Below, piece after piece: positions 401 through 63,341 of a stretch of 64,000 bases of DNA. The first letter of the stretch is position 1; the number at the start of each line of letters is the position of its first letter. The stretch spans positions 4,112-68,111 of the forward strand of contig JACPLF010000003.1 in NCBI GenBank assembly GCA_016186645.1. Reading direction: 5' to 3'. This DNA is from Candidatus Levyibacteriota bacterium (GTDB lineage: Bacteria; Patescibacteriota; Microgenomatia; Levybacterales; UBA12049). The notes beneath the pieces were generated by a model. That model saw only the letters and a program-made list of their open reading frames with translations. It was not told where the DNA came from and did no database searches. The translations under genes were made by a program, and so were the position numbers.

Positions 401-1957
401 ATGAACATTACAAGCTATGAAGAGGCGATAAATTATCTGGAAGGATTTATTGGGAAAGTTGTTTTTAAAATCAACAAAGAGTTTTTGAAAAAGCGTGACC
501 CCTTGCAGAGGATGAGAATTCTGCTTTCACTTCTTGGAAATCCGCAGGAGAAGTTTAGATCAGTTTTGGTTGGGGGGACATCTGGAAAAGGGTCAACTGC
601 TTATTTAATTTCCCATATCCTAACAGTTGCTGGTTACAAAACAGGATTCACGGTTTCTCCGCATCTTCAGAAAGTTAATGAGAGGCTTCAGATAAATAAC
701 AAGTCAATTTCTAACGAGAACTTTTTAATATTGTTCAAAAGTATAATACTACCAAGTATTAGACAAATGTCAAAAATGGAAGTTGGCCCGCCGTCGTATT
801 TTGAAATTTTGGTTGCAATGGGGTTTAAACATTTTGCAGATCAAAAAGTGGATATTGCAGTTGCGGAGGTTGGGATGGGAGGAGAGTTTGACGCAACAAA
901 TACCTTAAATCCATTGATTGCAGTTCTTACAAATGTGGGATTGGATCACACCAATATTTTGGGAAAAACTGTTTCGAAAATCGCGCGAACCAAAGCTGGC
1001 ATAATTAAAACTGGCGCCACCCCTTTGGTAGTTGTGTCGGGGGTAAGGCAGCCGACGGTTATTAAGATTGTTGAAGATAGATGCAGAAAAGTGGGGGCAA
1101 AGCTCAATTTATTGTGGAGGAATTTTGGATATAAAATAAAAAAGATAAACCATGAAGGATCAGTTTTCGATTTAACAGTATCAAGCGGCCGCGGGCTACA
1201 GTTAAATGATTTGAGCTTGTCTTTTTTGGGAGATTATCAAGTTGAGAATGCGTCGCTGGCAATTAAAACAATTCTAGAACTTAGAGAATTAGGATTTTCC
1301 CACAACGCTCGCGCTTCGAGGGACAAGAAAATTTCAGACAGTGCAATTAGAAAAGCCTTAAAAACATCCTTTTTCCCGGGAAGATTCGAGGTGATTCATG
1401 TCGCTCAACAACCGCGCGTTTCAGATGACGCTCGGCAAACTGATTCAAATCCTTCTCCCAACTCGGCCTCGCTAAGTAAAAGTCGGCTCCAATCAAGAAC
1501 CCAGCCGACTTTTAGTTCATCTGAAAGCGGATTGTCTCGCTCCAACCATACGCTCATTTTAGATAGCGCGCATAATCCGACAAAAATGCGTGCGTTTTTG
1601 GCAACGCTTAAAAAACTTTATCCAAAAGAGAAAAAAGTTTTTCTTGTAGGATTTAAATTTGACAAAGACATACAAAAAATGCTCAAGCAAATTATAAAAG
1701 TTGCGGACGAAATTATCATCACAGAGTTTAATAGGGCAACAGATATGAATTTACACGCGTCTGCTGACGCAGAAAGTATTAAGTATCAAGTATTAAGTAT
1801 CAAGTATTCGGGAAAAATAATTGTTGAAAAGGATTCAAAAAAAGCACTGAAAATAGGAATTAAAACAATTCAACAATTTAACAATGAAACAATTTTAGTG
1901 GTTACGGGGTCTTTGTATTTGGTTGGTGAAATTAGAGGGTTATTGACAAAGTTTTAA
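401..1957 (+). CDS. folC: folylpolyglutamate synthase / dihydrofolate synthase (Mur ligase family)
   Basis: VGGTSGKGST P-loop and VGLDHTNILG motifs typical of FolC/Mur ligases. Carries GC-rich low-complexity inserts (1302-1322 and about 1420-1560). Confidence 0.85.
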   Translation: MNITSYEEAINYLEGFIGKVVFKINKEFLKKRDPLQRMRILLSLLGNPQEKFRSVLVGGTSGKGSTAYLISHILTVAGYKTGFTVSPHLQKVNERLQINNKSISNENFLILFKSIILPSIRQMSKMEVGPPSYFEILVAMGFKHFADQKVDIAVAEVGMGGEFDATNTLNPLIAVLTNVGLDHTNILGKTVSKIARTKAGIIKTGATPLVVVSGVRQPTVIKIVEDRCRKVGAKLNLLWRNFGYKIKKINHEGSVFDLTVSSGRGLQLNDLSLSFLGDYQVENASLAIKTILELRELGFSHNARASRDKKISDSAIRKALKTSFFPGRFEVIHVAQQPRVSDDARQTDSNPSPNSASLSKSRLQSRTQPTFSSSESGLSRSNHTLILDSAHNPTKMRAFLATLKKLYPKEKKVFLVGFKFDKDIQKMLKQIIKVADEIIITEFNRATDMNLHASADAESIKYQVLSIKYSGKIIVEKDSKKALKIGIKTIQQFNNETILVVTGSLYLVGEIRGLLTKF

Positions 1958-4010: not shown

Positions 4011-4118
4011 TTAACCTAATTGCTCTAATTCCTAAGTTGGAGTTTGGCCCGTCTTGCCGGCGAGGCAGGGAATTGATTAGGTTAATTAGAGTAATTAGTA
4101 ATTAGTAATTAGAAATTT
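4003..4118. repeat. family 1 MITE-like element, copy 1, between tmk and the dcd paralog
   Basis: cctaattaacctaatt ... aattgattaggttaattag TIRs. GC-rich core ggcccgtcttgccggcgaggcaggg, then (gt)aattag x4. Confidence 0.65.
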
Positions 4119-4125
4119 TAAGAAT

Positions 4126-4701
4126 ATGATTTTGGGGCCGAAAGATTTATTAAAATTAGTCAAAACAAAAAAGCTCGTTGAGGGTTTGTCAGAAAGAGAA
4201 CTGACCAATCCTGAAGGAGCTGGGTTTGATTTGCGCTTGGGGGAAGTTTATTCAATTTCCGGCAACGCTTTTTTGGGCGAAACGCATCGGAAAACCGCGG
4301 ACATAAAATTAGTTGCACAATATAGACATATAAAAAAAATAAGCGATCGCATTAAAAAATCAGATATTAAGACCCAAAAAATTGAGATTAAGCCTGGAGA
4401 TTTTTTCCTGGTCAAGACAATCGAATCGGTAAATATGCCCCAAAATTTAACCGCGAGCATAACTCCAAGGTCTACAACTTACCGCTCGGGTTTGTTTCTT
4501 CGCACGGGAAATGTGCAGCCCGGTTACTGCGGGGGATTGATTTTTGGTTTGAAAAACGAAGGACCAATAACAGTCGAAATCGAAATGGGCGCGAGATTTG
4601 TCCACATCCAGTTTTCGCAAGTCAAAGGCGGGGGAAACATGTACCGCGGCCAATGGCAAGGCGGCCGAGTAACCGCGAGAAAAAAGGAAAAACAGGTTTA
4701 G
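4126..4701 (+). CDS. dCTP deaminase/dUTPase-family paralog
   Basis: MILGPKDL...GFDLRLGEVY N-terminus and C-terminal beta-jellyroll motifs (PGYCGGL). Contains an in-frame copy of the AGCGATCGCAT element at 4342-4352. Confidence 0.7.
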   Translation: MILGPKDLLKLVKTKKLVEGLSERELTNPEGAGFDLRLGEVYSISGNAFLGETHRKTADIKLVAQYRHIKKISDRIKKSDIKTQKIEIKPGDFFLVKTIESVNMPQNLTASITPRSTTYRSGLFLRTGNVQPGYCGGLIFGLKNEGPITVEIEMGARFVHIQFSQVKGGGNMYRGQWQGGRVTARKKEKQV

Positions 4702-9684: not shown

Positions 9685-9713
9685 AAAAAAATCAGATAAC
9701 TAAATGTAAATTT

Positions 9714-9867
9714 ACCCCGTTACCCAATGTCCCATCCGTTAGGATGCGGGTTTCTAGTGGCGTGAAGCGAAAATTCAATAATGCCCGGACCCGCTTCGCC
9801 CAAGCTCCCGCCTAGACTCGGCGAGGCTGGTCAGCGAGGCGAGCCGTAAGGTCGTGGGTAACGGGGT
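9714..9867. repeat. 154-bp MITE-like element with 13-bp perfect terminal inverted repeats; the interior carries a 57-mer that is also present inside dnaX
   Basis: ACCCCGTTACCCA at 9714-9726 and TGGGTAACGGGGT at 9855-9867. Interior 9788-9844 matches 25870-25926 at 55 of 57 positions. Confidence 0.7.
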
Positions 9868-12973: not shown

Positions 12974-13002
12974 TTGTTAAATTGTTACATTGTTAAATTG
13001 TT
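12973..13002. repeat. tandem 8-bp AAATTGTT-type repeats (about 4 units) between rpsB and tsf
   Basis: taattgttaaattgttacattgttaaattgtt. Similar arrays at 23078-23150 and inside pepP at 62513-62545. Confidence 0.6.
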
Positions 13003-13458
13003 ATGATAGGCTTGGAACTTCTAAGAAAACTTCGAAACGAGACACAGGCGGGGATTGCCGATTGCAGGAGGGCTTTGGAAGAATCGAATAATGATTATAA
13101 AAAAGCACTCGTTTGGCTTAGAGCTCACGGATTGGAAAAAGCCGCCAAAAAGAAAGACCGCCAGACCTCTCAAGGATTAGTAGAATCATACATTCATCAA
13201 AATGGACGGGTTGGAGCGTTGGTGGAAGTTTTGTGCGAGACCGATTTTGTTGCCCGAACAGACGAATTCAAACATTTTGTACACGAAATTTGCATGCAGG
13301 TCGCAGCAATGAAACCAAAAGATGTACCAGCACTTTTGAAACAGGAATACATTAGAGACGGTTCAAAAACTATTGAAAGTTTGATAAAAGAAACAATCGC
13401 AAAGTTAGGTGAAAATATAGTTGTCAAAAGACTCCAAAGATTTGGAATAGGAGAATAA
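13003..13458 (+). CDS. tsf: elongation factor Ts (short form)
   Basis: UBA-like N-terminus (GIADCRRALEESNNDYKKALVWLR) and a dimerisation core. At 151 aa it is the truncated form seen in reduced genomes. Confidence 0.8.
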   Translation: MIGLELLRKLRNETQAGIADCRRALEESNNDYKKALVWLRAHGLEKAAKKKDRQTSQGLVESYIHQNGRVGALVEVLCETDFVARTDEFKHFVHEICMQVAAMKPKDVPALLKQEYIRDGSKTIESLIKETIAKLGENIVVKRLQRFGIGE

Positions 13459-14856: not shown

Positions 14857-16041
14857 ATGTTAATTACAATACTCGTTTTTCTACTTATTTTAAGCATTCT
14901 CGTGTTGATCCATGAAGCCGGGCATTTTTTTGTTGCGAAAAAATTCGGAATAAAAGTTGAGGAGTTTGGCTTTGGTTTTCCGCCAAGAGTGTTTAGTTTT
15001 AAAAAAGGAGAAACCATTTATTCTATAAACTGGCTGCCAATCGGGGGATTTGTAAAATTGTATGGGGAAGATGAAGCCCCCCTTCGCTCAGATTCTCCTC
15101 GTGGTCTACGTCCACGCAGTCGAAACTTCGCTTCGGAGGGGCAAGCATTTTTTGCGAAGAGCGCTTGGCAGAGAGCGACAGTAATTATTGCAGGAGTTGT
15201 AATGAATGCTGTTTTGGCTGCTGTTATTTTCTACATCTTTCTTGGCGTTTCAGGATTCAAAACAGAATTACCCCTTCTTTCTGATTATAAATTCGTAGGG
15301 GTAAATCAGACAAATCTACAGCAGGTAGTAATTTCAGCCATTGCTAAAAACTCACCCGCGGAAAAACAAGGGTTAAAGCCTCTCACTAAAGTTATTTCTG
15401 TAAATGGGCAAGAAATTAAAGATTCAAAAGAATTTATAAGTATTGTTGGTTTGAACAGAGGCAAAGAAATTGAGATTGCGTGGAGCAATTTGCAAACTAA
15501 CGAAACTCATAAGACCAAAGTGACTCCTCGAATAAATCCTCCGAAAAATGAAGGGGCATTGGGTGTCGGACTGTTTTCGCTTTCCACTGCGGTTTTGAAT
15601 TATGAAACTCCAATTCAAAAAACTTTTTCAGGCATAATTCACCCTATAAATTTAATGTCCTACAACCTAAACGTAATGGGGAATTTGGTAAAGTCATCTT
15701 TTGAAAAAAAGACCACAGAGCCAATCAGTCAGGGTATATCCGGACCTGTTGGAATCGCTTCTCTAACCGGAAGTATTTTGGAAATACAAAATTTAAAAGA
15801 AAAATTATTAGGCCTTCTTAACCTGGCAGGCATTTTGTCTATTTCTTTGGCATTTTTCAATGTGTTGCCGATACCGGCCCTTGATGGAGGAAGATTGTTT
15901 TTTATTTTGATTGAAGCTGTAATAGGAAGGAAAGTGAATCAGAGAATCGAATCTTTTACTCATTCAGTCGGAATGGCTCTTCTTCTTGGCCTAATGCTTC
16001 TTATTACGTTTAAAGATATAGGAAAACTATTTATCAAATGA
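14857..16041 (+). CDS. rseP: RseP-like site-2 zinc metalloprotease (M50) with a PDZ domain
   Basis: HEAGHFFVAKKFG motif and the C-terminal LDGG region. Carries a GC-rich in-frame insert at about 15071-15150. Confidence 0.85.
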   Translation: MLITILVFLLILSILVLIHEAGHFFVAKKFGIKVEEFGFGFPPRVFSFKKGETIYSINWLPIGGFVKLYGEDEAPLRSDSPRGLRPRSRNFASEGQAFFAKSAWQRATVIIAGVVMNAVLAAVIFYIFLGVSGFKTELPLLSDYKFVGVNQTNLQQVVISAIAKNSPAEKQGLKPLTKVISVNGQEIKDSKEFISIVGLNRGKEIEIAWSNLQTNETHKTKVTPRINPPKNEGALGVGLFSLSTAVLNYETPIQKTFSGIIHPINLMSYNLNVMGNLVKSSFEKKTTEPISQGISGPVGIASLTGSILEIQNLKEKLLGLLNLAGILSISLAFFNVLPIPALDGGRLFFILIEAVIGRKVNQRIESFTHSVGMALLLGLMLLITFKDIGKLFIK

Positions 16042-16709
16042 AAAAGGTTACCATAATTACAGTAGAAAATCAGCAAGAAGGCTTGGCTGCTGCAAAGTAT
16101 TTGCTATACAAAAAAGTTGACGATCAAACACTGCTTCTTCTCTCGGGGGGATCAACCCCAAAAGATTTGTACGAAACTATAGCGCAGGAAAAAAAGTTAA
16201 CGGCTAAAGCAGTTGGAATGGTTGATGAGAGGAAAGATAGAAGCAATTATAAAATGATAATGTCAACAGGATTATTGGATTATCTTAAGAATCTGAAAAT
16301 AAAATTTTACCCAATGATTTCTGCATCGTATTACGATAGGGACATACATAAACTTATAGGTTCATCTAAAAATAAAGCAGCTGTTATGGGTATTGGAGCA
16401 GATGGACACACAGCCGGCTTGCCAGCCGGAACTCAAATCTCAAATCTTAAATCTCAAAACTACGTAATAGATATAAATAATTTTCCTGGGGAGTTTAGAA
16501 AAAGAGTTACATTAACATTTAGAGCTCTTTTGAAAATGGATTTACTAATTGTCCTAGCTTTTGGCGAAAACAAAAAAGAGGCTTTGGAAAAAATGTTTGA
16601 CCCTTCGGCGGACTCAGGGCAAGAAGCGATTGAAGAAATTCCTGCAAGATTTTATCTTCGTCCCGATATTGCTCCTAAAACCCTTTTAATTACTGATCAG
16701 AAGATATAG
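16038..16709 (+). CDS. pgl: 6-phosphogluconolactonase
   Basis: GIGADGHTAGL motif of the NagB/DevB family. Confidence 0.7.
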   Translation: MKKVTIITVENQQEGLAAAKYLLYKKVDDQTLLLLSGGSTPKDLYETIAQEKKLTAKAVGMVDERKDRSNYKMIMSTGLLDYLKNLKIKFYPMISASYYDRDIHKLIGSSKNKAAVMGIGADGHTAGLPAGTQISNLKSQNYVIDINNFPGEFRKRVTLTFRALLKMDLLIVLAFGENKKEALEKMFDPSADSGQEAIEEIPARFYLRPDIAPKTLLITDQKI

Positions 16710-19703: not shown

Positions 19704-19743
19704 TTATATAACAACTTTTGAAAATATGCTATACTTTTGTTGA

Positions 19744-20996
19744 ATATGCGTTACTCTAAGCTATTTGGGAAAACCATAAAAAATGCGCCGAATGATGAGG
19801 TCAGTCTAAATTCCAAGCTCTTAACCCGCGCCGGATTCATACGTCGTGAAGTTTCCGGAGTGTACAATTATCTGCCCTTAGGCTTAAGAGTAATTGAAAA
19901 AATTTCCAATATAGTCCGGGAGGAAATGCATGCAATCGGCGGACAGGAATTGTTGTTAAGCGCTCTTCAAAATAAACAGTCTTGGGAGAAAACAGGCAGA
20001 TGGAAAAGTTTTGATGTGCTTTTCAAACTCACAAGTGTTTTGGATCGGGAGTATCCTTTGGGGCCTACACATGAAGAAGTAATTATTCCTTTAGCAAAAC
20101 AATTTATAAGCTCGTACAAAGATTTGCCTTTTAGTGTTTATCAAATTCAGACAAAATTTAGAGATGAAAAAAGAGCCAAAAGCGGAATTTTAAGAGGCCG
20201 TGAGTTCCTGATGAAAGATTTATATTCATTTCATGCAGATGAAAAAGATTTCAAAAAATATTACGAAACTGTAAAAAAAGCATACAAAAAAATTTTTAAA
20301 CGTTTGGGACTTATCGCTATTGAAACAGAAGCAAGCGGAGGATCATTTAGTAAAGTTTCTCATGAATATCAAGTTATTGCCGCGGCGGGAGAGGATGAGA
20401 TTATTTATTGCCCGGGCGGAGATTTTTCTGCAAACAGTGAAATAAGTCCTGTTAAGGAAGGAAAACAGTGTGACTTGGGCCATGGAGCCTTAAAAAAGGT
20501 AAAAGCAATTGAAGTTGGGAATATTTTCCCTCTTGGCACAAAGTTTTCCGATGCTTTTGGATTGACTTATAAAAATAAAGAAGGCAAAGATATTCCTGTT
20601 GTCATGGGATGTTATGGGATTGGCATCTCAAGACTGATGGGTACAATTGCCGAAGTTCATAATGATGAAAAAGGAATTGTCTGGTCAAAAGAGGTTGCGC
20701 CGTATGACGTTCACTTGGTCCACCTCGGAGGAGTCGAGGCCGCTGCCTCGCCACCGTCCGAGGTGATACGTTTTGCGGATGAAGTTTATGAAACACTGAA
20801 GAAGAATGGAGTTGAAGTTTTGTGGGATGATCGGGAAGAGTCTCCAGGAACTAAATTCGCAGACGCAGACCTCATCGGAATTCCAGTTCGGTTGGTTGTT
20901 AGTAAAAGAAATGGCGACAAGGTCGAGTTTAAAAATAGAAATTCAGAAAAATCAGAGCTTTTAAGTTTGGGAGAGACTGCTAAAAAATTAAGGTAA
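19744..20996 (+). CDS. proS: prolyl-tRNA synthetase, minimal form with no editing insertion
   Basis: Class II motifs and MRYSKLFGKTIKNAP N-terminus. ATG at 19744 (the ORF track begins at the TTG at 19737). TGCTATACT at 19725-19733. Carries an in-frame hairpin insert at 20721-20765. Confidence 0.9.
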
Positions 20997-21599
20997 AAAG
21001 GGAACTTTGAAGTTGAAGATTTTTGTCCAGAAAAGCGTGTAGATCACAATGAAAATCAATCCCGCAATTCCAAATAAAATAGGTATCATTATCCCGCTTT
21101 TCTTTTTGATAGCAATAGTTTGAGCTTGAGGCTGGGGCTGGGGAGCTGAAAAATTTGCTGAAGAAGGAGAAGCTGTAACTTCTGAGTTCATTTGAACAAA
21201 GTTAGAAGCTTGCGGCTGCGTGGGGATAGCTAGGTCGGGTGTTGGAATAGGTTCAGGCTGAGGATGAATTGCAGGCTGAGGCTCGGGTATTGAAGGTTGT
21301 GGCTCGGAAATAGGCTCAGGTTCATTCGTAGGGGCTGGAGGCGGCTGAATAGGCTGAGTTGGTATTGGTTCTGGTTGAGGCATTGGTGTTGGAGCAGGAG
21401 TTGGATTGGGCATAGGAGGTGTAGTTCCGCCGGCTGGCGGAGTAAGAGTTTGAGTCTGAATTGGCTCGCCTCGGGGCGAAGCCACGCCAAAGGCGGGCGA
21501 AGGAGGCTGAGTTTGCGGTTGGGGCACAGGTGTTCCCATTACGCGCTGATAGGCTTCTCTTAATTTCGGATCGAGCTGGGACAGTTTTTGCGGATCCAT
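20988..21599 (-). CDS. proline-rich tail-anchored membrane protein
   Basis: PQPEPIPT repeats and a C-terminal TM helix. Contains the 18-mer CTCGCCTCGGGGCGAAGC (21465-21482) on its antisense. Confidence 0.5.
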   Translation of the reverse strand: MDPQKLSQLDPKLREAYQRVMGTPVPQPQTQPPSPAFGVASPRGEPIQTQTLTPPAGGTTPPMPNPTPAPTPMPQPEPIPTQPIQPPPAPTNEPEPISEPQPSIPEPQPAIHPQPEPIPTPDLAIPTQPQASNFVQMNSEVTASPSSANFSAPQPQPQAQTIAIKKKSGIMIPILFGIAGLIFIVIYTLFWTKIFNFKVPFLP

Positions 21600-21762: not shown

Positions 21763-21809
21763 TTTTGATTAATTTGTCAAGGGGTGCAGTCTGCTGTATA
21801 CTTAAAAGC

Positions 21810-22091
21810 ATGAATCCCGTTAAAGATCGCTTTTATTATGTTTACATTTTACAAAGTTTGAAGAGCAACAAATGGTATACTGGCTACACAAATGAATTAC
21901 GCAAGCGTTTTAATCAACATCAAGAAAATAAATCTACATATACAAAAGGACGAGGACCTTTTAATCTTATATATTATGAAACATCGTTGAGAGAGGAGGA
22001 CGCTATAGCGAGAGAAAGATATCTTAAAAGCGGGATGGGCAAACGATATCTTAAAAATAGATTAAAACGCTCGCTATCTTTAACGGGATGA
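21810..22091 (+). CDS. GIY-YIG family nuclease (small, UPF0213-like)
   Basis: YYVYILQS...WYTGYTNELRKRFNQH. The TATACT -10 lies 7 nt before the ATG. Confidence 0.75.
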   Translation: MNPVKDRFYYVYILQSLKSNKWYTGYTNELRKRFNQHQENKSTYTKGRGPFNLIYYETSLREEDAIARERYLKSGMGKRYLKNRLKRSLSLTG

Positions 22092-23077
22092 AAATCGTTG
22101 TAACTCACAGTTCGCCGGACATGGATGCCATAACTTCTGTCTGGCTTATCAGAAAATTTTTACCAAATTGGAGCGATGCCCTAGTTAGGTTTGTACCAGC
22201 GGGAGAAAGGTTTACTTTTCGGAAAACTCAGAATGCTCAGAGCTCCAGCGTTTCTGACGGTCAGACTATCAGACAATCTGACTCTCCGAGTTCTTCAGAG
22301 TTTTCTGAAGTTGTCGAAAATATTGGCGAGGATGAAGTTATCCATGTTGATACTGGATTGGGACCTCTGGATCATCATCAGACTGCATCGGATGAAGTAT
22401 GCGGAGCAAGCCTGACGTTTGACTTCGTCAAACGAGTTCAAAATTCAAAATTCTCGCCTCGGGGCGAAGCGGGCAAAATTCAAAATTTGGAAAGCAAAAA
22501 GTGGAACGACAGAATGAAGGCAGTAGGGAGGATGGTGAAAGTTGTTGTTGATATAGATCATTTTAAGGAAGTTTTCCGCAAGGACCCTTTGGCTGACTAT
22601 CATGAATTTGACCTTGCAGGTATTTTGGATGGGCTCAAGCTCGAGCTTCCGGGTCAAGATGAATTATATGTTGCAGAAGTTAGCAAATCTTTGGATGCAA
22701 TTTTGCATGGGTTTGAAAATAGGATTTGGGCGGAAAAAGAAATCAGGGAAAAAGGGAAAAAATTTAAAACGCGCTTTGGCCGCGGAATTGGTTTAGAGAC
22801 AATAAATGATTCGGTTGTAAAATTGGCTCAAAAAATGGGATATGTAATTGCTGTGAGAAAAGATCCAAGAAAAGGGTACGTCCGAATAAAAGTGAGGCCG
22901 GATAGTAAAATTGATTTGACTTTAGTCTACGAGAAGTTTAGAAAAATCGACCCGGATGCCACGTGGTTTCTTCATGTTTCCAAAAAAATGCTTCTCAACG
23001 GTTCGGTAAAAAATCCCAAGATGAGGTCTACCAAGCTTTCTTTGAATGACATAATTAGAGTTCTAGAAAAGATATAA
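22088..23077 (+). CDS. DHH-family phosphoesterase (nanoRNase/NrnA-like)
   Basis: HSSPDMDAITS, DTGLGPLDHHQ. Overlaps the GIY-YIG stop. Carries in-frame repeat inserts at 22261-22300 and 22452-22469. Confidence 0.75.
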   Translation: MKIVVTHSSPDMDAITSVWLIRKFLPNWSDALVRFVPAGERFTFRKTQNAQSSSVSDGQTIRQSDSPSSSEFSEVVENIGEDEVIHVDTGLGPLDHHQTASDEVCGASLTFDFVKRVQNSKFSPRGEAGKIQNLESKKWNDRMKAVGRMVKVVVDIDHFKEVFRKDPLADYHEFDLAGILDGLKLELPGQDELYVAEVSKSLDAILHGFENRIWAEKEIREKGKKFKTRFGRGIGLETINDSVVKLAQKMGYVIAVRKDPRKGYVRIKVRPDSKIDLTLVYEKFRKIDPDATWFLHVSKKMLLNGSVKNPKMRSTKLSLNDIIRVLEKI

Positions 23078-23150
23078 TTGTTATATTGCTAAATTGTTAT
23101 ATTGTTAAATTGTTTTTGGTTCCTAGCAATATAGCAATTTAACAATAAGC
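23078..23150. repeat. tandem 8-bp AAATTGTT/ATATTGCT repeats with an inverted partner
   Basis: attgttatattgctaaattgttatattgttaaattg ... caatatagcaatttaacaat. Confidence 0.6.
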
Positions 23151-23171: not shown

Positions 23172-23537
23172 ATGGAAAACTGTGTTTTTTGCAAAATCAG
23201 AGATAGAATTATCCCGAAAGAATTCACTTACGAAGATGAATCGGTGATGGTTTTTCCGGATATAAATCCAATTAAGCCTGTTCATCTTTTGATTGTTCCC
23301 AAAAAACATATAGAAGACTTTTTAATGATAAATGATCCCTACAACGCTCGCGCTTCGAGGGGCGAGGCAGGTAAATTATTAATTATGAAGTTAATAAAGA
23401 TAACTCAAAAAATGATAAAGAAGTTCGGATTAGAAAATAAGGGATACAGGGTTGGAATAAACGGCGGAGGAGCCCAAATCATAAACCATCTTCACTTCCA
23501 TCTCCTAGGCCCCATGGGTAAAGCTGCTGCGATGTAA
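23172..23537 (+). CDS. HIT-family (histidine triad) nucleotide hydrolase
   Basis: NHLHFHLLG histidine triad. Contains the 21-mer ACAACGCTCGCGCTTCGAGGG (23341-23361), identical to a stretch in folC. Confidence 0.85.
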   Translation: MENCVFCKIRDRIIPKEFTYEDESVMVFPDINPIKPVHLLIVPKKHIEDFLMINDPYNARASRGEAGKLLIMKLIKITQKMIKKFGLENKGYRVGINGGGAQIINHLHFHLLGPMGKAAAM

Positions 23538-23614: not shown

Positions 23615-23767
23615 TTATTTGATTTCCGATCAAAAGATATATGACTACAATCAGCGATCGCATAGTAATATCATACATTATCTATGATCATAGCTGTAAC
23701 GCTTGAGTGGATTAAATGGGTATTTACTCTATTTTGGGTTTGGAGTAGAATAGAAAGTGGTAACGTG

Positions 23768-24544: not shown

Positions 24545-24697
24545 TTGACCTAATTGCCCTAATTAACCACGTCAAACGTGGCAGGCCTAATTTCTAAGCT
24601 GGAACTTGGCCCGCCTTGCCCGTTTCGACTCAACGAGGCGAGCCGGGCGAGGCAGGGATTTGATTAGGTCAATTAGAAATTAGAATAATTAGAAATT
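24545..24697. repeat. family 1 MITE-like element (TTGACCTAAT/ATTAGGTCAA TIRs) followed by AATTAG tandem repeats
   Basis: Homologous to 4003-4118. Confidence 0.65.
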
Positions 24698-24704
24698 TAG
24701 GTGT

Positions 24705-26291
24705 ATGGTTTTTTATCGAAAATATCGTCCGCAAAAAATAGAAGAGCTGGATAGTAAAGAAGTTAGGGACAAACTTCATAGTGTTTTGGGAAGCTCCTCT
24801 GTTTCTCATGCTTTTCTTTTTACAGGCCCCAAAGGTTTGGGAAAAACCTCAGCTGCAAGAATTGTCGCAAAAGTCCTAAACTGTGAAAAGGTGAGAAATG
24901 AGAAAGGAGAAATGAAAAATAAAGATAAAACTTCCCATCTCTCATCTCTCACTTCTCATTTCCGTGCGGTTGAGCCGTGCAATAAATGTGAACAATGCAT
25001 CTCGATTACACGCGGAACAAATCTAGACGTTTTGGAAATAGATGGTGCTTCAAATAGGGGAATAGATGAAATAAGAGATCTTAGGGAAAAAGTAAAACTT
25101 TCTCCAGCCGGGAGCCGCAAAAAAGTTTATATTATCGATGAAGTTCACATGTTAACCGCAGAAGCGTTTAATGCGCTTCTTAAAACTTTGGAAGAACCGC
25201 CAAGTCATGTTGTTTTTATTCTCTGCACAACAGAACCTCACAAAGTGCCAAGCACAATTCTGTCCCGTTGTTTACATATTCAATTTAGAAAAGCAACAGA
25301 GGCAGAACTGGTCAGATCGTTTGAAAGAATAATTAAAGCGGAAAAAATAAAAGCCGACAAAGAAGCCTTAGATTTAATCGCTAGTCTTTCAGACGGTAGC
25401 TTTAGAGACGGATCAAAACTTTTGGAAGAAATAGCTCTTTTGGCAGGACGTAAAAAAATTGCAAAAGAATTGATAGAAGAAAAATATTATGTATCAAGTA
25501 TTAAGTATCATATTAGAGCGATGGTGAAATGTTTGGATGCGAAAGACACAAAAGGAGGACTTGAACTTGTTTCAAAGCTGACAGAACAGGGCATTGACAT
25601 GAAGTTTTTTATTGAAGAATTAATACAGACTCTCCATAGTTTGTTACTTCAAAAAGTAGGGATTAAGAATGATCAAGAATTGGAAGTTCAAATTCTAGAC
25701 TTTGATATCAATGGAATCAAAAGACTGGTAGAATTATTTGCAAAAGCGCACAGCGAATTAAAATATGCGGTTTTGCCCCAGATTCCTTTGGAGCTGGTGA
25801 TTGTGGAATGGGGAATCCAGAAAACTCAGAATACTCAGCAATCCGGCAATTCTGATAATCAGACGATCAGACCCGCTTCACCGAAGCTCCCGCCTAGACT
25901 CGGCGAGGCTGGTCAGCGAGGCGAGCAATCTGATTCTCCGAGTATTCAGAAAATGGTGAAAGCACAAAAAAATGAAATACCGCTTAATGTTGCTCAGCAG
26001 AATATGATGGGGTACAGTGAGAATAATGCGTTGTGGGTCTCTTTGATAGATAGAGTGAAGGCTTACAATCATTCTATTGCCGGGGTATTGCGCGGATGCA
26101 GGATAAAAAGTTATGATGGTAAGAGTTTAATAATAGAAGCAAATTTCAAATTCCATAAAGATAAATTAGGGGAAATAAAAACACAACAGGTTTTGGAAGA
26201 AGCATGCAAAGAAATTACGAAGAAAAATGTTAAAGTAGAAGTGATGATGAAACCCGCCGTCGCTAAAGCTTTGGCGGGCGATGGGAGGTGA
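24705..26291 (+). CDS. dnaX: DNA polymerase III subunits gamma/tau
   Basis: MVFYRKYRPQKIEEL, GPKGLGKTS P-loop, a zinc module with CNKCEQC, and a box VII LSRC sensor. Carries nested GC-rich repeat inserts at 24930-24965 and 25857-25943. Confidence 0.9.
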   Translation: MVFYRKYRPQKIEELDSKEVRDKLHSVLGSSSVSHAFLFTGPKGLGKTSAARIVAKVLNCEKVRNEKGEMKNKDKTSHLSSLTSHFRAVEPCNKCEQCISITRGTNLDVLEIDGASNRGIDEIRDLREKVKLSPAGSRKKVYIIDEVHMLTAEAFNALLKTLEEPPSHVVFILCTTEPHKVPSTILSRCLHIQFRKATEAELVRSFERIIKAEKIKADKEALDLIASLSDGSFRDGSKLLEEIALLAGRKKIAKELIEEKYYVSSIKYHIRAMVKCLDAKDTKGGLELVSKLTEQGIDMKFFIEELIQTLHSLLLQKVGIKNDQELEVQILDFDINGIKRLVELFAKAHSELKYAVLPQIPLELVIVEWGIQKTQNTQQSGNSDNQTIRPASPKLPPRLGEAGQRGEQSDSPSIQKMVKAQKNEIPLNVAQQNMMGYSENNALWVSLIDRVKAYNHSIAGVLRGCRIKSYDGKSLIIEANFKFHKDKLGEIKTQQVLEEACKEITKKNVKVEVMMKPAVAKALAGDGR

Positions 26292-27628: not shown

Positions 27629-28237
27629 ATGAAAATACCTAAAGCCATACAAAGCCTAATTGAGTCTTTTGAGAAACTGCCGGGCATTGGGCAGAAAACT
27701 GCCCAGCGCCTCACTTTTTATCTATTGCATATTCCGCAAGGCGAGTTAGATAACTTTGCCAATTCAATCCAGAATCTTAAAAAAGGAACAATTATTTGTT
27801 CTATTTGTTTTTCAGTTGATGAGGCCGACCCATGCAGTATTTGTGAGAATCGAGAGCGTGATAAGTCTATTATTTGTGTTGTTGAAGAGCCGTTGGATGT
27901 TTTGGCGCTTGAGAAAAACGGTAAATACCATGGTGTATACCATGTTCTGCATGGGAAAATAGATCCGCTAAACAATATAGGTCCGGACGAAATTTATATA
28001 AAGCAATTATTGGATAGAATTATGAATCAAGAATCAGGAATTAAGGAGGTAATATTAGCTACAAACCCGACAATGGAAGGAGAGGCGACGGCAATGTACA
28101 TAGCAAAACAACTCAAATCTCAAATCTCAAATCTCAAAATTACGAGGATTGGGAGAGGGCTGCCAACAGGCGCGGATATTGAATACGCGGATGAGTTAAC
28201 TCTTCAACGAGCCATGGAAGGCAGGCAAAATTACTGA
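27629..28237 (+). CDS. recR: recombination protein RecR
   Basis: LPGIGQKTAQRL HhH, C4 zinc finger and Toprim. Confidence 0.9.
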   Translation: MKIPKAIQSLIESFEKLPGIGQKTAQRLTFYLLHIPQGELDNFANSIQNLKKGTIICSICFSVDEADPCSICENRERDKSIICVVEEPLDVLALEKNGKYHGVYHVLHGKIDPLNNIGPDEIYIKQLLDRIMNQESGIKEVILATNPTMEGEATAMYIAKQLKSQISNLKITRIGRGLPTGADIEYADELTLQRAMEGRQNY

Positions 28238-28249: not shown

Positions 28250-28580
28250 ATGAATGATGATACGATTTTGGGCGGAGTTTTAAATCAACTGGGACAAACT
28301 GCAAAAAAAAGCTGGACAGCAGATTGTAAAAATACCTGAAGAAATGGCAAATGATGCGGGCGGTCAGATTGGTTCTGCAAAGCATCAGTGGCAGTCAGAT
28401 GAGGAAAGAATAAAATTCTTAAGATACCTTTACGGTTCGGATAAAGACGCAAATCCTTCGGATGGAAAACCTACGGAGTTTGAAGAGAAATTAAAGGAGA
28501 AGGATTTGGCGATTCCTAAGTCGGAACAGGAATTGGATGAGTTTTTGGCAAAGCCTTTGCCCCGAAAAACAGCGGGTTAA
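28250..28580 (+). pseudogene. frameshifted paralog of the 29519-30016 gene; an A8 homopolymer at 28303-28310 breaks the frame
   Basis: The frame from the ATG at 28250 stops at 28337-28339. Removing one A gives a read-through product collinear with the paralog (…KIPEEMA…QWQSDEERIKFLRYLYG…). Confidence 0.55.
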
Positions 28581-29002: not shown

Positions 29003-29238
29003 TCAAACTTTCTTCCGCTTTTAATCAAATCCAGAGCGGAAATGTTAATTTTAACCGCAGATTTTTTAAATTTTTCAGCCATATTAATCTGAATAGAACT
29101 AGTTAACTGTTTGTTTTTATATAAGGATACGGCATGTCTAATTAATGCTGCTGTACTTTTTCCTTCAGAGAAAGCCAAGAGTTTAATCTTGTTGTATTCA
29201 TCGGCAGGAAATCTTAAATTGGTTGCAATTGTGTCCAT
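28999..29238 (-). CDS. vapB: RHH (CopG/VapB-like) antitoxin
   Basis: MDTIATNLRFPADEYNKIKLLAFSEGKSTAALIRHAV. The start region contains CCATGGTA direct repeats at 29236-29255. Confidence 0.65.
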   Translation of the reverse strand: MDTIATNLRFPADEYNKIKLLAFSEGKSTAALIRHAVSLYKNKQLTSSIQINMAEKFKKSAVKINISALDLIKSGRKFE

Positions 29239-31950: not shown

Positions 31951-32930
31951 TTTTTTGTTTTTAGAAATTCTAATGTTTCCTTCGCATTTTGAAACTTCAT
32001 AAGTTCTGTTCTCACATTACTTGCGTTTGGCATGCTCGCCTCGCTGAAGCTTTGGCGAAGCGGGCCGGAGATGTAGATTTTGTAGAACTTTTTCATAATG
32101 GAGAAGTTTTTAGTTTTGCCCCAAGTTTTGTCAAAAAGCGTAATGTGCGTAATTAATAATTTTAATTTTTCTTGATAAGAAATGCTTGCTGGGTTTATGG
32201 ATTTATTATAAATCCAAAGGTTGTCAAAAATTCCCCGTCCTATCATAATTCCATCAACTTTATATCTCTTGTATTTTTCCATTGCATCGTCAAGACTTTT
32301 TACATCGCCATTTCCGATAATTAGGGTTTTGACTTTCATAGCATCTCTCAATTTAACAACTTTTCCGATTTCATCCCAGTGGGCCGGAACATCTGACATT
32401 TCCGCAGCTGTCCGGCCATGAATTATAAGGCAATCAAGATTTAATCCCAGCAAAAATCTTGCCCATTTTTCTGTTTGAATATTTTTAATTCCGATTCTGG
32501 TTTTAACGCTTACAGGGAGACCACTGGCGCCCTCCCGTGTTGCCAAAATAATTTCTTTGGCAAGTGCATGGTTGTTTATTAAAGCAGCACATGAGCCTTT
32601 TTTTACAACTGATTTTTCCGGACACCCCATGTTGATGTCAATCCCATCAAAACCTCTGAGTCTTATTAATTTTGCAGTTTCAAAATAATTTTTGGGATTG
32701 TTTCCCCAAATCTGCGCAACAATCGGGTGTTCAATATCTGTAAATTTTAATCTTTTCCCAACTTTGTCCCGGCCTTTTGAACACATGCCTTCGACATTTG
32801 TGAACTCTGTAAAAAAGACATCGGGTTTTCCACATCTTGCAATTATTTGTCGGAAAACCGTATCAGTCACATCTTCCATTGGGGCCTGAATCAAAATCGG
32901 TTTTTTAAGACTAGTCCAAAAGTTCTTCAT
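31947..32930 (-). CDS. dus: tRNA-dihydrouridine synthase
   Basis: APMEDVTD..., INMGCPEKSVVKKGSCAAL motif. Confidence 0.85.
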   Translation of the reverse strand: MKNFWTSLKKPILIQAPMEDVTDTVFRQIIARCGKPDVFFTEFTNVEGMCSKGRDKVGKRLKFTDIEHPIVAQIWGNNPKNYFETAKLIRLRGFDGIDINMGCPEKSVVKKGSCAALINNHALAKEIILATREGASGLPVSVKTRIGIKNIQTEKWARFLLGLNLDCLIIHGRTAAEMSDVPAHWDEIGKVVKLRDAMKVKTLIIGNGDVKSLDDAMEKYKRYKVDGIMIGRGIFDNLWIYNKSINPASISYQEKLKLLITHITLFDKTWGKTKNFSIMKKFYKIYISGPLRQSFSEASMPNASNVRTELMKFQNAKETLEFLKTKN

Positions 32931-62222: not shown

Positions 62223-63341
62223 CTAAAGTTCGATAAGATTCTTTGGGGAATGGGTGAGAAGACGAGGGCCTTTCTTTTCTAAGACTACCAAATCCTCAAT
62301 CCTAACACCGCCAAGGTTTGGAATGTAAATTCCCGGTTCAATTGAAAAAACCATCCCAACTTTTAAAATATCTTTGGATTTTGGAGAGAGACGGGGCGCT
62401 TCATGAACATCGATCCCGATTCCATGACCGAGAGAATGGGGAATAGTTTTGTATCCTTTGGATATGATGTGTTCTCGGGCAATTTTATCAATTTTAGATG
62501 CCTTAATGCCTTTATCCAATTGCTTTATTGTTAAATTGCTAAATTGTTGAATTGCTTTTTTTTGCGATTCCAAAACTGTTTGGTACATCCTTTTTTGTTC
62601 GGCTGTTGGTTTTCCGAAGAAAATTGTGCGGGTCATGTCAGAACAATAATTATTTAATTTAACCCCGAAATCCAACAAAACAAACTGACCACTAGACGCT
62701 AGACGCTGATTGCTGGTTTGGTGGTGGGGGATGGCGGAGTTTTTTCCAAACGCAACAATGGGCTTAAAAGAAATATCGCCGCCTTGTTTTTTTATGAAAA
62801 ATTCTATTTCATTCGCTATTTCTTTTTCCGAGACTCCTAGTTTAATCTTCTTTAAGATATAATCAAAAGTTTTGTCGGAAAGCACGCACGCTTTTTCTAT
62901 TTTTGAAACTTCTTCTTTATTCTTTATTGCACGTAAGTTATTTAAACTAAAATGATTTAAATCATTAAAGCGAGAAGATAATTTTTTATGTTCCAAAAAG
63001 GTAAGATTATTTCCCTCAAAGCCCATGCGTTTGACGCGATATTTTTTGATAAGCTGTTTAAGCGCTTTTTCAAAAGATAGTTTTGAAGAAATCTCAATCG
63101 ATTTAAAATTATGTACCAATTTTTTTATGGCTTGAGAATATCTCCCGTCAGTCAAAATATATTGTTGATTTTTGGCCCGCTTCGCCGCGAGGCGAGTAAT
63201 AAATAAATATGCTTCGCGTTCTTCTTTGGAAAACCCTGAATAATTTGTCAGATATACTATATTGGAAAAAGATGAAATTAAAACTGCATCCAATTTCTTT
63301 TTTGCAAATTCCTGTTTAAGTTTTGCAAGAGGAGTACTCAT
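62223..63341 (-). CDS. pepP: Xaa-Pro aminopeptidase (M24B)
   Basis: Pita-bread HSLGHGIGIDVHE and metal ligands. Contains in-frame AAATTGTT repeats (62513-62545) and a GC-rich CGCTTCGCCGCGAGGCGAG insert (about 63176-63200). Confidence 0.85.
   Translation of the reverse strand: MSTPLAKLKQEFAKKKLDAVLISSFSNIVYLTNYSGFSKEEREAYLFITRLAAKRAKNQQYILTDGRYSQAIKKLVHNFKSIEISSKLSFEKALKQLIKKYRVKRMGFEGNNLTFLEHKKLSSRFNDLNHFSLNNLRAIKNKEEVSKIEKACVLSDKTFDYILKKIKLGVSEKEIANEIEFFIKKQGGDISFKPIVAFGKNSAIPHHQTSNQRLASSGQFVLLDFGVKLNNYCSDMTRTIFFGKPTAEQKRMYQTVLESQKKAIQQFSNLTIKQLDKGIKASKIDKIAREHIISKGYKTIPHSLGHGIGIDVHEAPRLSPKSKDILKVGMVFSIEPGIYIPNLGGVRIEDLVVLEKKGPRLLTHSPKNLIEL

What the first reader, a model, noticed from the sequence alone, without database searches (positions are those of the whole stretch)
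20721..20765. Perfect 11/12-bp inverted repeat hairpin inserted in-frame in proS, with similar inserts in rseP and folC
CACCTCGGAGG...CCGTCCGAGGTG (20721-20765) encodes LGGVEAAASPPSEV inside ProRS. rseP carries a GC-rich 80-bp segment (about 15071-15150; EDEAPLRSDSPRGLRPRSRNFASEGQAFFAKS) between conserved M50 blocks. folC has a 140-bp Ser/Pro-rich segment (about 1420-1560) containing AAAAGTCGGCTCC / CAGCCGACTTTTAG inverted repeats. All are locally GC-rich against about 37% GC.
Basis: partly seen in the sequence, partly recalled or inferred. Interest (0 to 1): 0.6.

Follow-up and report, generated by a model that had tools for sequence, protein, structure and literature searches.

The report
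In-frame palindromic repeats in Levybacteria genes
The GC-rich hairpin inside the prolyl-tRNA synthetase gene is one copy of a dispersed family of tiny palindromic DNA repeats that sit in frame in loops of many essential genes of these ultra-small bacteria, much as in Rickettsia but not previously described in this group.

Summary
All three segments are lineage-specific in-frame insertions, absent from close or distant orthologues, and the ProRS insert maps to a low-confidence coil in the model.

The window is from a Candidatus Levybacteria MAG. The proS hairpin has fixed arms (CACCTCGGAGGAGTC…CCACCNTCCGAGGTG) around a variable core. The same arms occur in more than 120 groundwater metagenome contigs. 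57 of 118 unique copies lie inside ORFs, in 37 host-gene clusters, in both orientations; 21 hosts were identified (19 by Pfam).

The rseP, folC, DHH, HIT, DnaX, Dus, M24 and dCTP-deaminase inserts belong to other short palindromic families. They show clean empty sites (21, 30, 36 or 54 nt, no target duplication), compensatory stem changes, nesting at hairpin apices and genome-specific variants.

The element's 3′ arm is a 15-nt palindrome, 14/15 identical to the one bracketing a conserved RAYT-like Y1 transposase gene in related genomes. This suggests REPIN-like elements moved in trans. That step is inferred: no such gene lies in the window.

Verdict: a new family of a known kind (intragenic REP/RPE-type repeats). 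Interest is moderate to high.

The parts
20719..20765 (+). F2 (REPIN-like) element in proS. It comprises a TC tag, the 5' arm CACCTCGGAGGAGTC, the core GAGGCCGCTGCCTCG and the 3' arm CCACCGTCCGAGGTG. It encodes HLGGVEAAASPPSEV.
   Evidence: Sequence. Fold z = -4.5. The same arms occur in L001, L012 and L011 and in more than 120 metagenome contigs. Coil position in the model.
15076..15142 (+). Long, partly decayed hairpin element in rseP (GCCCCCCTTCGC...GGAGGGGC), in the loop after the GGFVKLYGEDE block.
   Evidence: About 17 aa extra relative to Aquifex RseP. Shared with L001, replaced in L002 and L003. An 86% identical relative lies in L011 in a gene leader, with compensatory arms.
1397..1537 (+). 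folC site B: a nested double-hairpin element of about 140 nt, encoding about 46 aa at the interdomain junction.
   Evidence: The W versus L205 comparison gives 34 pairs, 7 compensatory and 0 broken. The site is empty in L206.
1298..1327 (+). folC site A: a 30-nt insert (SHNARASRDK). It shares a 21-nt core with the HIT insert.
4324..4359 (+). 36-nt in-frame copy of an AT-rich palindrome centred on GCGATCGC, in a dCTP-deaminase-like gene (RHIKKISDRIKK).
   Evidence: Repeat families D1/D2. Absent from the L206 orthologue.
4031..4070 (.). Intergenic GC-rich palindromic unit (GGCCCGTCTTGCC/GGCGAGGCAGGG).
9788..9844 (.). Intergenic copy of the 57-nt GC-rich unit, 96% identical to the DnaX copy.
   Evidence: D11. 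Folds only on the minus strand.
21454..21533 (-). GC-rich element (CTCGCCTCGGGGCGAAGCC...) in a Pro-rich membrane-protein gene. Absent from L002 and L003.
22219..22312 (+). AT-richer palindromic element (D17 type) in the DHH-family gene.
   Evidence: Fold z = -2.3.
22453..22473 (+). 21-nt element (E21, TCGCCTCGGGGCGAAGCGGGC) in the DHH gene, encoding SPRGEAG.
   Evidence: Exact 21-nt insertion relative to L002, with no target duplication. Other copies are listed.
23334..23372 (+). 36-nt insert in the HIT gene (DPYNARASRGEAG).
   Evidence: Empty in L003, 30 nt in L002. Genome-specific core.
24601..24660 (.). Intergenic GC-rich hairpin.
   Evidence: RNA fold z = -3.3 and -3.5 on the two strands.
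25817..25964 (+). Composite element in dnaX: a D17-type palindrome with a 54-nt GC-rich unit (25873-25926) nested exactly at its apex.
32033..32065 (-). 33-nt element (TGCTCGCCTCGCTGAAGCTTTGGCGAAGCGGGC on the + strand) near the 3' end of the dus gene.
   Evidence: Copies 94-100% identical occur in L120, L184 and L085.
63175..63196 (-). E21 copy in the M24 aminopeptidase gene (RLAAKRA).
   Evidence: (I25). The site is empty in three orthologues.

Best explanation
The proS hairpin is one copy of a dispersed, non-coding-origin palindromic repeat, here called F2. F2 has REPIN architecture: two inverted copies of a roughly 15-nt REP-like palindrome around a short variable spacer. The rseP, folC and other inserts are copies of sister families of short palindromic repeats.

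These elements spread through Levybacteria-type genomes and persist inside essential genes only where three conditions hold. They add a multiple of three bases, they contain no stop codon, and they land in a tolerant surface loop or linker. There they are simply translated as extra loop residues.

New copies appear to enter preferentially at hairpin apices or AT-rich repeats of earlier insertions. This turns certain loops into nested, hypervariable hot spots, such as the ProRS site after strand 1 of the anticodon-binding domain, the RecR loop and FolC site B.

The likely engine is a conserved RAYT-like Y1 (HUH) transposase acting in trans on single-stranded hairpins.

**Shown:** family membership, presence/absence polymorphism, in-frame lengths, loop position, nesting, stem covariation, and the near-identity of the arm to the palindrome that flanks the transposase gene.

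**Inferred:** the transposase actually moves these elements, and they are neutral or selfish rather than useful.

The confidence of 0.72 applies to the dispersed in-frame repeat reading as a whole. The transposase step alone I would put at about 0.55.
For: **Dispersal**
- Identical 15-nt arms occur in proS (W, L001, L012) and recR (L011).
- The same arms occur in more than 120 metagenome contigs. This gives 118 unique copies, 80 distinct sequences, and one 45-mer found in 11 different contexts.
- 57 copies lie in ORFs open for at least 60 codons on both sides. They fall into 37 host clusters, in both orientations.
- 19 hosts were identified by Pfam as PurL, ArgRS, MiaA, FolD, UvrB, UvrD, RecG, MurB and others.

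**Insertion character**
- Clean filled and empty sites exist: 21 nt in DHH and M24, 30 and 36 nt in folC-A, HIT and DCD, and 54 nt nested in DnaX.
- Where the junction is resolvable there is no target duplication.
- All three reported segments are absent from close or distant orthologues.

**Structure**
- Hairpins are significant: z = -4.5 for proS and -4.4 for folC.
- folC site B shows 7 compensatory pairs and none broken.
- The rseP arms differ compensatorily between W and L011.
- The 57-mer folds on one strand only, through G.T pairs.

**Protein tolerance**
- In the model the ProRS insert is a coil with block pLDDT 66, between E322-327 and H339-353.

**Transposase link**
- Nine Y1 genes in eight loci are each bracketed by a cognate palindrome.
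- For five members of the L003 family (L003, L209, L210, L211, and L208 with a co-varying variant) the palindrome is CCACCTTCGAGGTGG. This is 14/15 identical to the F2 3' arm CCACCTCCGAGGTGG.
- The family has more than 5,000 members and is rare per cluster. Its best NCBIfam match is REP-associated tyrosine transposase.
- An asymmetric 5' tag is conserved: T at position -2 in 102 of 116 copies.

**Precedent**
- Intragenic REPs and RPEs are documented (PMC3733652, PMC10969869). REPIN/RAYT features are described in PMC3116915.
Against: - No Y1 gene lies in the 64-kb window, and the rest of the source genome could not be read.
- No Y1 gene was found flanked by the exact F2 arm. The match is 14/15.
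- The L003 genome shows no F2 copy in the 42 kb read.
- The Y1 protein scores below the curated RAYT cut-off, 42 against 80 bits.
- Exact F2 boundaries and target-site behaviour could not be resolved, because the flanking loop residues also differ.
- Arm-to-arm lengths of intragenic copies are not enriched for multiples of three: 24/19/14.
- The window's rseP copy, the 21-mer and several cores are not significant hairpins.
- Some of the 57 intragenic calls may be spurious ORFs, since many copies lack stops in all frames.
- The patchy distribution at the proS site rests on an unbootstrapped NJ tree.
Confidence: 0.72

Rival explanations
1. The elements are host-beneficial structures rather than selfish DNA. 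For example, they could be mRNA hairpins that pause ribosomes at domain boundaries, stabilise transcripts or serve as processing sites. Alternatively the encoded loops could have a protein-level role. On this view selection on the host explains the conserved stems.
For: - Stems are maintained by compensatory changes.
- Several inserts sit at domain boundaries: folC site B, the start of the ProRS anticodon-binding domain, and after DnaX domain III.
- Intergenic copies lie just downstream of genes.
Against: - Close orthologues lack the inserts or carry unrelated ones at the same site.
- The same element is read in many frames and in both orientations, in 37 unrelated host clusters.
- One family folds only on the antisense strand of its host mRNA.
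- Stem covariation is equally expected if a transposase recognises the hairpin.
Confidence: 0.1
2. The copies spread and are homogenised by homologous recombination or gene conversion, for instance after natural DNA uptake, or by template switching between existing copies. No dedicated transposase is involved. The hypervariable loops are recombination cassettes.
For: - The core of the folC-A/HIT element is genome-specific at 5 positions while its edges are locus-specific.
- A few recurrent alleles are distributed patchily at the proS site.
- The two 57-mers within W are 96% identical although the orthologues lack them.
Against: - Conversion cannot create the first copy at a new site. Yet clean insertions exist into sequences with no prior copy, such as the DHH AAAATTC repeat and M24.
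- Nesting occurs exactly at hairpin apices.
- A conserved asymmetric 5' tag is present.
- Cognate Y1 genes exist.

This process may well act in addition to transposition.
Confidence: 0.15
3. The inserts arose locally and independently at each site, by slippage, quasi-palindrome correction or low-complexity expansion in unconstrained loops. There is no shared origin.
For: - The sites are loops with variable length in many lineages.
- The neighbouring DNA contains short tandem oligonucleotide repeats.
- One suspected repeat-derived segment (FolC SIKYQVLSIKY) proved to be an ordinary constant-length region.
Against: - Identical 45-mers occur in 11 unrelated contexts, and identical 15-nt arms in more than 120 contigs.
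- The same 21-mer is found in proS, DHH, M24 and inside an F2 core.
- Copies 94-100% identical occur in different genes of different samples.
Confidence: 0.03
4. The conserved arms are DNA-uptake or other protein-binding signal sequences enriched genome-wide, as USS/DUS are. These also occur in coding regions.
For: - The arm sequence is fixed.
- USS are tolerated in coding regions (own knowledge).
- CPR bacteria are thought to depend on DNA uptake (own knowledge).
Against: In 1.4 Mb of unbiased genome loci every arm occurs as part of an inverted pair, never alone. Only 4 loci carry it. Uptake signals are mostly single and far more frequent.
Confidence: 0.02

Closest known systems
REP / REPIN elements with RAYT (REP-associated tyrosine transposase), including intragenic REPs (PMC3116915, PMC2817692, PMC3733652)
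   Same: - The unit is a short GC-rich imperfect palindrome.
- Inverted doublets with a spacer form a long hairpin.
- Stems use G.T pairs and are strand-asymmetric.
- Y1 genes are bracketed by cognate palindromes that co-vary with the gene.
- Elements nest and form composites.
- Intragenic, translated copies in tRNA synthetases and in replication and repair genes have been reported in a few species.
   Different: - About half of the sampled copies are inside genes, rather than a small minority.
- There is no GTAG or CGTC tag. A T-Y dinucleotide precedes the arm instead.
- The unit is only 15 nt.
- The transposase link is 14/15, seen in related genomes and not in this window.
- The Y1 protein is below the curated RAYT score.
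- The host is a CPR bacterium with a genome of about 1 Mb (own knowledge).
Rickettsia palindromic elements (RPE) (Ogata et al. 2000, cited in PMC10969869 and PMC3733652)
   Same: - They are palindromic repeats inserted in frame into many unrelated housekeeping genes of a reduced genome.
- They are free of stop codons.
- They are located where the protein fold tolerates them.
- Copies also occur in non-coding DNA.
   Different: - RPEs are about 100-150 bp and restricted to Rickettsia. Here most units are 21-58 nt (the folC element is about 140 nt).
- The sequences are unrelated.
- No transposase has been linked to RPEs.
IS200/IS605-derived palindrome-associated elements and MITEs
   Same: - They are non-autonomous, hairpin-bearing small elements.
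- Insertion occurs without target duplication next to a short conserved flank, as in IS200/IS605 (own knowledge).
   Different: - Classical MITEs have terminal inverted repeats plus target-site duplications and are 100-300 bp.
- No duplication is seen here.
- No parent insertion sequence with these ends was found.

Membership tests
REP/REPIN-RAYT system | Short imperfect palindromic unit (REP) | tested here: met
   The F2 3' arm CCACCTCCGAGGTGG is itself a 15-nt palindrome. Other families have GC-rich palindromic cores.
REP/REPIN-RAYT system | Inverted doublet plus spacer forming a hairpin (REPIN) | tested here: met
   All 118 unique F2 copies are inverted arm pairs around a 5-35-nt core. The proS copy has z = -4.5. 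No solitary arms occur in the unbiased loci.
REP/REPIN-RAYT system | Cognate RAYT gene flanked by the same REP | tested here: inconclusive
   Y1 genes in L003, L209, L210 and L211 are bracketed by CCACCTTCGAGGTGG and its reverse complement. This is 14/15 identical to the F2 arm. L208 has a co-varying variant. None lies in the window, and none has the exact F2 arm.
REP/REPIN-RAYT system | Transposase recognised as RAYT by a curated model | tested here: not met
   NCBIfam NF047646 is the best and only hit, but it scores 42.2 bits against a cut-off of 80. Pfam Y1_Tnp passes, 31.6 against 23.
REP/REPIN-RAYT system | Extragenic location | tested here: not met
   57 of 118 unique copies are inside ORFs. 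21 hosts were identified: 19 by Pfam, plus ProRS and RecR.
REP/REPIN-RAYT system | Conserved GTAG or CGTC tetranucleotide at one end (the super-families of PMC3733652) | tested here: not met
   The upstream flank is T (102/116) followed by C or T. No GTAG or CGTC is present.
REP/REPIN-RAYT system | High copy number within one genome | not testable with these tools
   Only 64 kb of the source genome is available. It holds 1 F2 copy, 3 copies of the 21-mer type, 2 of the 57-mer and 5 of the GCGATCGC type.
Rickettsia palindromic elements | In-frame insertion into unrelated housekeeping genes, with copies also in non-coding DNA | tested here: met
Rickettsia palindromic elements | Position compatible with the protein fold (surface loops) | tested here: met
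   ProRS: coil 328-338 with reduced pLDDT. RseP and FolC: gaps in alignments to solved structures at a loop or linker.
Rickettsia palindromic elements | Membership of the RPE-1 to RPE-10 sequence families, about 100-150 bp, genus Rickettsia | tested here: not met
   The host is Candidatus Levybacteria. Units are 21-58 nt apart from folC site B. No sequence comparison with RPE consensus sequences was possible.
MITE | Target-site duplication flanking terminal inverted repeats | tested here: not met
   The DHH insertion adds exactly 21 nt, and the number of flanking AAAATTC units is unchanged. F2 junctions could not be resolved.
DNA uptake signal sequences | Frequent solitary copies of a fixed short motif | tested here: not met
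   Arms are found only as inverted pairs, in 4 of 85 unbiased sources (the window plus 84 loci).

The most novel reading that the evidence does not exclude
Levybacteria-type CPR genomes host a REPIN population with an intragenic lifestyle. The elements home into the apices of earlier hairpin copies. Specific loops of essential enzymes therefore act as nested landing pads that are continually rewritten and homogenised within each genome (concerted evolution). Possible consequences include effects on protein-loop diversity or RNA-level control. This would be a mode of REPIN-host coexistence not described for classical, extragenic REPINs.
Probability: 0.2. Interest if true: 0.78.

Novelty: new member of a known kind. 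Interest (0 to 1): 0.6.

Why it matters
CPR bacteria have very small, streamlined genomes and are usually regarded as poor in mobile DNA. This finding points the other way. Several families of tiny palindromic repeats are tolerated inside aminoacyl-tRNA synthetases, replication and repair proteins and biosynthetic enzymes, and a plausible RAYT-type driver exists.

Four consequences follow if this holds:

- It gives a second, independent natural system besides Rickettsia for asking how selfish hairpin DNA shapes the proteins of reduced genomes.
- It explains many length differences and odd low-complexity stretches in CPR protein alignments. That matters for annotation, phylogenomics and structure prediction.
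- It offers markers for strain-level population genetics in groundwater metagenomes.
- It extends the REPIN-RAYT relationship to a phylum and a genomic niche (coding sequence) where it had not been described in the literature I could search.

Tried and rejected
- **Perfect GC-rich hairpin count.** Only the proS copy was found. The other elements are imperfect, so the method undercounts.
- **Census of GC-rich islands across loci.** It was not discriminating, because conserved coding motifs also score. It was useful only after clustering.
- **AT-rich oligonucleotide repeats as mobile inserts.** I suspected FolC SIKYQVLSIKY (repeat D12). I rejected this because the region has constant length in all orthologues.
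- **Window repeat D9 and the L002 CysRS insert as copies of the transposase-flanking unit.** The shared part overlaps a promoter-like TTGACA box next to the hairpin. The relation is left unresolved.
- **Self-complementary F2 cores as a general rule.** Core shuffling gives a mean z of only -0.9, and 21% of cores are below -1.65. This holds for some cores, not all.
- **Length mod 3 of arm-to-arm spans.** This gave no signal, so the arms do not delimit the whole inserted unit.
- **tRNA and Rfam searches of the window.** Nothing was found.
- **Reading the unseen ends of the 79.5-kb source contig for a Y1 gene.** This failed.
- **Peptide-string literature search.** It returned only noise.
- **Alternative identities.** Uptake-signal, intron/intein and assembly-artefact readings were considered. 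I rejected them for three reasons: the arms occur only as pairs, the element is far too small, and the same sequence recurs in many independent assemblies with intact reading frames.
Full report
**1. The observation**

The window is 38% GC, gene-dense and mostly coded on the + strand. It has no tRNA genes and no Rfam matches. Its ProRS is 100% identical to a protein of a Candidatus Levybacteria MAG, which belongs to the Microgenomates within the CPR.

*proS.* At 20721-20765, inside proS (19737..20996), lies CACCTCGGAGGAGTCGAGGCCGCTGCCTCGCCACCGTCCGAGGTG, encoding HLGGVEAAASPPSEV.
- It is 73% GC.
- As DNA it folds at -17.7 kcal/mol with z = -4.5, and 0 of 200 shuffles fold as well.
- As RNA on either strand the z-score is about -4.

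*rseP.* The segment at 15071-15150 is 56% GC.

*folC.* The segment at 1420-1560 is 47.5% GC. Two nested inverted repeats were found there, and the fold has z = -4.4.

Both segments are as described. The window's rseP copy is not a significant hairpin on its own (z = -0.9).

A single 9-bp GC-rich hairpin in 64 kb is not improbable by itself: shuffles give 0.55 per window. The case rests on what follows.

**2. The three segments are insertions**

Relative to solved structures:

| Protein | Extra residues | Position |
|---|---|---|
| ProRS | about 6 | between strand 1 and helix 1 of the anticodon-binding domain |
| RseP | about 17 | after the conserved GGFVKLYGE block |
| FolC | about 46 | at the junction of its two domains |

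Among 120 ProRS orthologues of 67-83% identity, this one site ranges from 'HLVGLS-DDAEAVY' to inserts of more than 40 residues. It carries a handful of recurrent alleles.

Syntenic loci from relatives were fetched (L001-L004). The query-type insert is shared with L001, whose hairpin has identical arms and three substitutions in the core. It is absent from L002 and L003.

FolC site B is empty in the closest orthologue and hypervariable across the family.

An AlphaFold model of ProRS has mean pLDDT 84.5. It places the insert in a coil (residues 328-338) between E322-327 and H339-353. Block pLDDT there is 66, against 84-96 on either side.

**3. The proS hairpin belongs to a dispersed family**

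The same 15-nt arms occur in three further places:
- the proS genes of L001 and L012, the latter at 63% protein identity and with a 7-nt core;
- inside recR of L011, in the opposite orientation, at a loop where L002 carries a different insert and W and L003 carry none.

Including the window and the genome-derived loci, the results were:
- 118 unique copies and 80 distinct sequences, 34-58 nt long;
- the commonest 45-mer is identical to the L001 proS copy and occurs in 11 different contexts;
- 57 copies lie in ORFs open for at least 60 codons on both sides;
- these fall into 37 host clusters, in both orientations and several phases.

Pfam confirmed 19 hosts: PurL, PurQ, ArgRS, an M24 peptidase, CCA-adding enzyme, MiaA, FolD, UvrB, UvrD, RecG, MurB, TatD, CarA, a polyprenyl synthase, a PBP transpeptidase, prepilin peptidase, a carbamoyltransferase and two glycosyltransferases. 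ProRS and RecR bring the total to 21 identified hosts.

In 1.4 Mb of unbiased proS loci from species-representative Patescibacteria genomes, the element occurs only in W, L001, L011 and L012, and always as a pair of arms. The family is therefore restricted to a Levybacteria-like clade.

**4. Sister families in the same window**

Alignments with the syntenic relatives show lineage-specific in-frame inserts in most genes compared. The junctions are clean.

- **DHH.** The W gene equals L002 plus exactly 21 nt (TCGCCTCGGGGCGAAGCGGGC). The insert sits inside an AAAATTC tandem repeat whose unit number is unchanged, so there is no target duplication.
- **The same 21-mer elsewhere.** It sits in proS of L004, in the window's M24 peptidase (site empty in three orthologues), in L182 and L102, and inside the core of an F2 copy: L176 equals L202 plus the 21-mer.
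- **HIT.** W carries a 36-nt insert and L002 a 30-nt one, while L003 has none.
- **folC site A.** This is a 30-nt insert of the same family as the HIT insert.
- **DnaX.** It carries an AT-richer palindrome also present in DHH. A 54-nt GC-rich unit is nested exactly at its apex. That unit is 96% identical to an intergenic copy at 9788-9844.
- **Dus.** Its 33-mer has copies 94-100% identical in three other contigs.
- **rseP.** The insert has an 86% identical relative in L011, in the leader of an unrelated gene. That copy folds well (z = -3.3), and its arms differ from W's in a compensatory way.
- **dCTP-deaminase-like gene.** An AT-rich palindrome centred on GCGATCGC has four intergenic copies and one 36-nt in-frame copy in this gene. 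The in-frame copy is absent from the L206 orthologue.

All resolvable inserts are multiples of three.

**5. Structure rather than peptide is conserved**

FolC site B in W and in L205 (57% protein identity) has the same length and the same nested-hairpin layout, but different stem sequences. Of 34 predicted pairs, 7 changed on both sides, 1 on one side and none is broken.

The 57-nt unit folds well only on one strand, through G.U/G.T pairs: -35.5 kcal/mol and z = -3.1, against -22.6 and z = -0.3.

The core of the folC-A/HIT element is genome-specific, while its edges are locus-specific:
- W has AACGCTCGC in both genes;
- the L002/L206 genome has TTCGCTAAA in both genes.

This indicates either concerted evolution or repeated re-insertion.

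An NJ tree of ProRS built without the loop scatters the F2 allele over at least eight places. The tree is unbootstrapped. Even so, among orthologues at least 80% identical to the query, four or more different alleles occur.

**6. A candidate driver**

L003 carries a Y1_Tnp gene. Its only NCBIfam hit is REP-associated tyrosine transposase, although the score is below the cut-off.

The gene and eight further Y1 genes (eight loci in all) are each bracketed by a cognate palindrome. In most cases the downstream copy is the reverse complement of the upstream one.

| Y1 gene(s) | Flanking palindrome |
|---|---|
| L003, L209, L210, L211 | CCACCTTCGAGGTGG |
| L208, first gene (76% paralogue) | co-varying CACCCTTCGGGTG upstream, CCACCCGAAGGGTGG downstream |
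| L208, second (divergent) gene | TCCCACATTCCATGTGGGA on its outer side |
| More distant paralogues (L133/L134, L042, L087) | unrelated palindromes |

The F2 3' arm, CCACCTCCGAGGTGG, is itself a palindrome. It has the same 6-bp stem and differs by one loop base, so it is 14/15 identical. F2 thus has the architecture defined for REPINs: inverted REP doublets with a spacer that form a hairpin, associated with RAYTs (PMC3116915).

The Y1 family is large, with more than 5,000 proteins at E ≤ 1e-30. Each cluster is seen on few contigs. In two genomes the gene sits at the same chromosomal position, between recO and a class II tRNA-synthetase gene.

A conserved asymmetric tag precedes the 5' arm: T at position -2 in 102 of 116 copies, then C or T. 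This recalls REP tags and IS200/IS605 target sites (own knowledge).

Four caveats apply:
- no Y1 gene lies in the window;
- none was found with the exact F2 arm;
- the L003 genome shows no F2 copy in the 42 kb read;
- the source genome beyond the window could not be read.

**7. Interpretation**

The best-supported reading is that these are REP/REPIN- or RPE-like selfish or neutral palindromic repeats. They survive in coding DNA where they are in frame, free of stops and located in tolerant loops. They tend to accumulate by nesting at earlier copies, which produces hypervariable hot spots.

Mobilisation by the RAYT-like Y1 transposase is plausible but inferred. Gene conversion between copies probably acts as well.

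The other readings fit the data poorly:
- **Host-beneficial RNA or protein role.** The inserts are absent from or replaced in close orthologues. They are read in many frames and both orientations, and one family folds only on the antisense strand.
- **Purely local origin.** Identical copies occur in unrelated genes and samples.
- **Uptake-signal reading.** No solitary arms are found.

**8. Comparison with what is known, and novelty**

Intragenic REPs (in Opitutus terrae, Thauera, Rickettsia and some tRNA synthetases) and Rickettsia RPEs are documented (PMC3733652, PMC10969869). The kind is therefore known.

The searchable literature held no description of such elements in CPR/Patescibacteria.

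The system differs from classical REPINs in three respects: a high intragenic share, no GTAG or CGTC tag, and very short units. It differs from RPEs in size, sequence and host.

I rate it a new member of a known kind, with interest 0.6. It is a robust and extensive case in a lineage thought to be poor in mobile DNA. It has practical consequences for CPR protein alignments, and it offers a testable link to a RAYT.

Noticed in passing
window 21810-22090 (ORF 21765..22091): A GIY-YIG nuclease gene is inserted exactly between the DHH promoter plus start codon and the DHH coding sequence. W reads AAAGCATGAA|...|GGGATGAAAAT where L002 reads AAAGCATGAAAAT. The cassette borrows the host's promoter and ATG, regenerates an ATG for DHH, and is absent from L002 and L003. 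L206 carries two more small GIY-YIG ORFs. It looks like a mobile gene cassette.
   Followed up: partly
window 4311-4375, 9643-9707, 23635-23680, 34177-34241, 40744-40808: This is a family of 46-65-nt AT-rich palindromes centred on GCGATCGC, the same octamer as the cyanobacterial HIP1 palindrome (own knowledge). Four copies lie just downstream of genes. One is a 36-nt in-frame insert in a dCTP-deaminase-like gene.
   Followed up: partly
L003:1615-1660; L209, L210, L211 just upstream of position 10001 or 2903; window 30023-30055, 41269-41301, 9895-9928: The palindrome upstream of each Y1 gene abuts a conserved CTAGCTTGACAC... sequence that looks like a -35 box about 45 nt before the start codon. 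Degenerate versions (window repeat D9) lie about 100 nt upstream of three window genes. An L002 CysRS insert also resembles them. Whether hairpin-plus-promoter modules disperse was not resolved.
   Followed up: partly
FolC orthologues P0131, P0134, P0140, P0146, P0148, P0151, P0153, P0160, P0164 (site B); also L010, L012, L017, L033: Other recurrent repeat-derived peptides fill the same loops in relatives. Examples are CHPEFISGS...MLKQVQHDK, ACLPAGR, and PFDKLR/RQAQGK from CCCGTTCGACAGGCTCAGGGCAAG. This suggests many more palindromic families across Microgenomates.
   Followed up: no
window 12955-13003, 23067-23115, 62517-62557, 16430-16464, 28110-28144: Intergenic and some coding DNA contains short tandem 7-8-nt AT-rich oligonucleotide repeats (AAATTGTT, AAATCTCA, AAAATTC). 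The 21-nt element in DHH inserted into one of them. Similar repeat-like peptides (IEIRNSKFEIRNKSKNQN) fill the ProRS loop in some orthologues.
   Followed up: no
window 25817-25964 (dnaX, after domain III): The composite hairpin insert lies roughly where E. coli dnaX has its frameshift site and stimulatory stem-loop (own knowledge). No slippery heptamer was obvious upstream. The position is probably coincidental.
   Followed up: no
L208:9376-10678 and L003:1671-2351 (same assembly, GCA_964603935.1): One Levybacteria genome carries at least three Y1_Tnp genes. Two are adjacent and divergent, and each has a different flanking palindrome. This resembles genomes that hold several RAYT-REPIN pairs.
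   Followed up: partly
L006, L008, L011 and other loci: Several MAG records titled 'uncultured Gammaproteobacteria bacterium' or 'Candidatus Saccharibacteria' encode ProRS 52-68% identical to the Levybacteria protein (65-68% in L006, L008 and L011). At least L011 carries genes syntenic with the window's (PRPP synthetase next to recR). The record titles look unreliable.
   Followed up: no
window 4738-5103, 28577-29286 and 34245-37400: The window also holds a RelB-like antitoxin gene and a PIN-domain toxin gene with a small upstream partner. A 1051-aa protein combines RCC1 repeats with a lipase/alpha-beta hydrolase domain. None of these is related to the finding.
   Followed up: no
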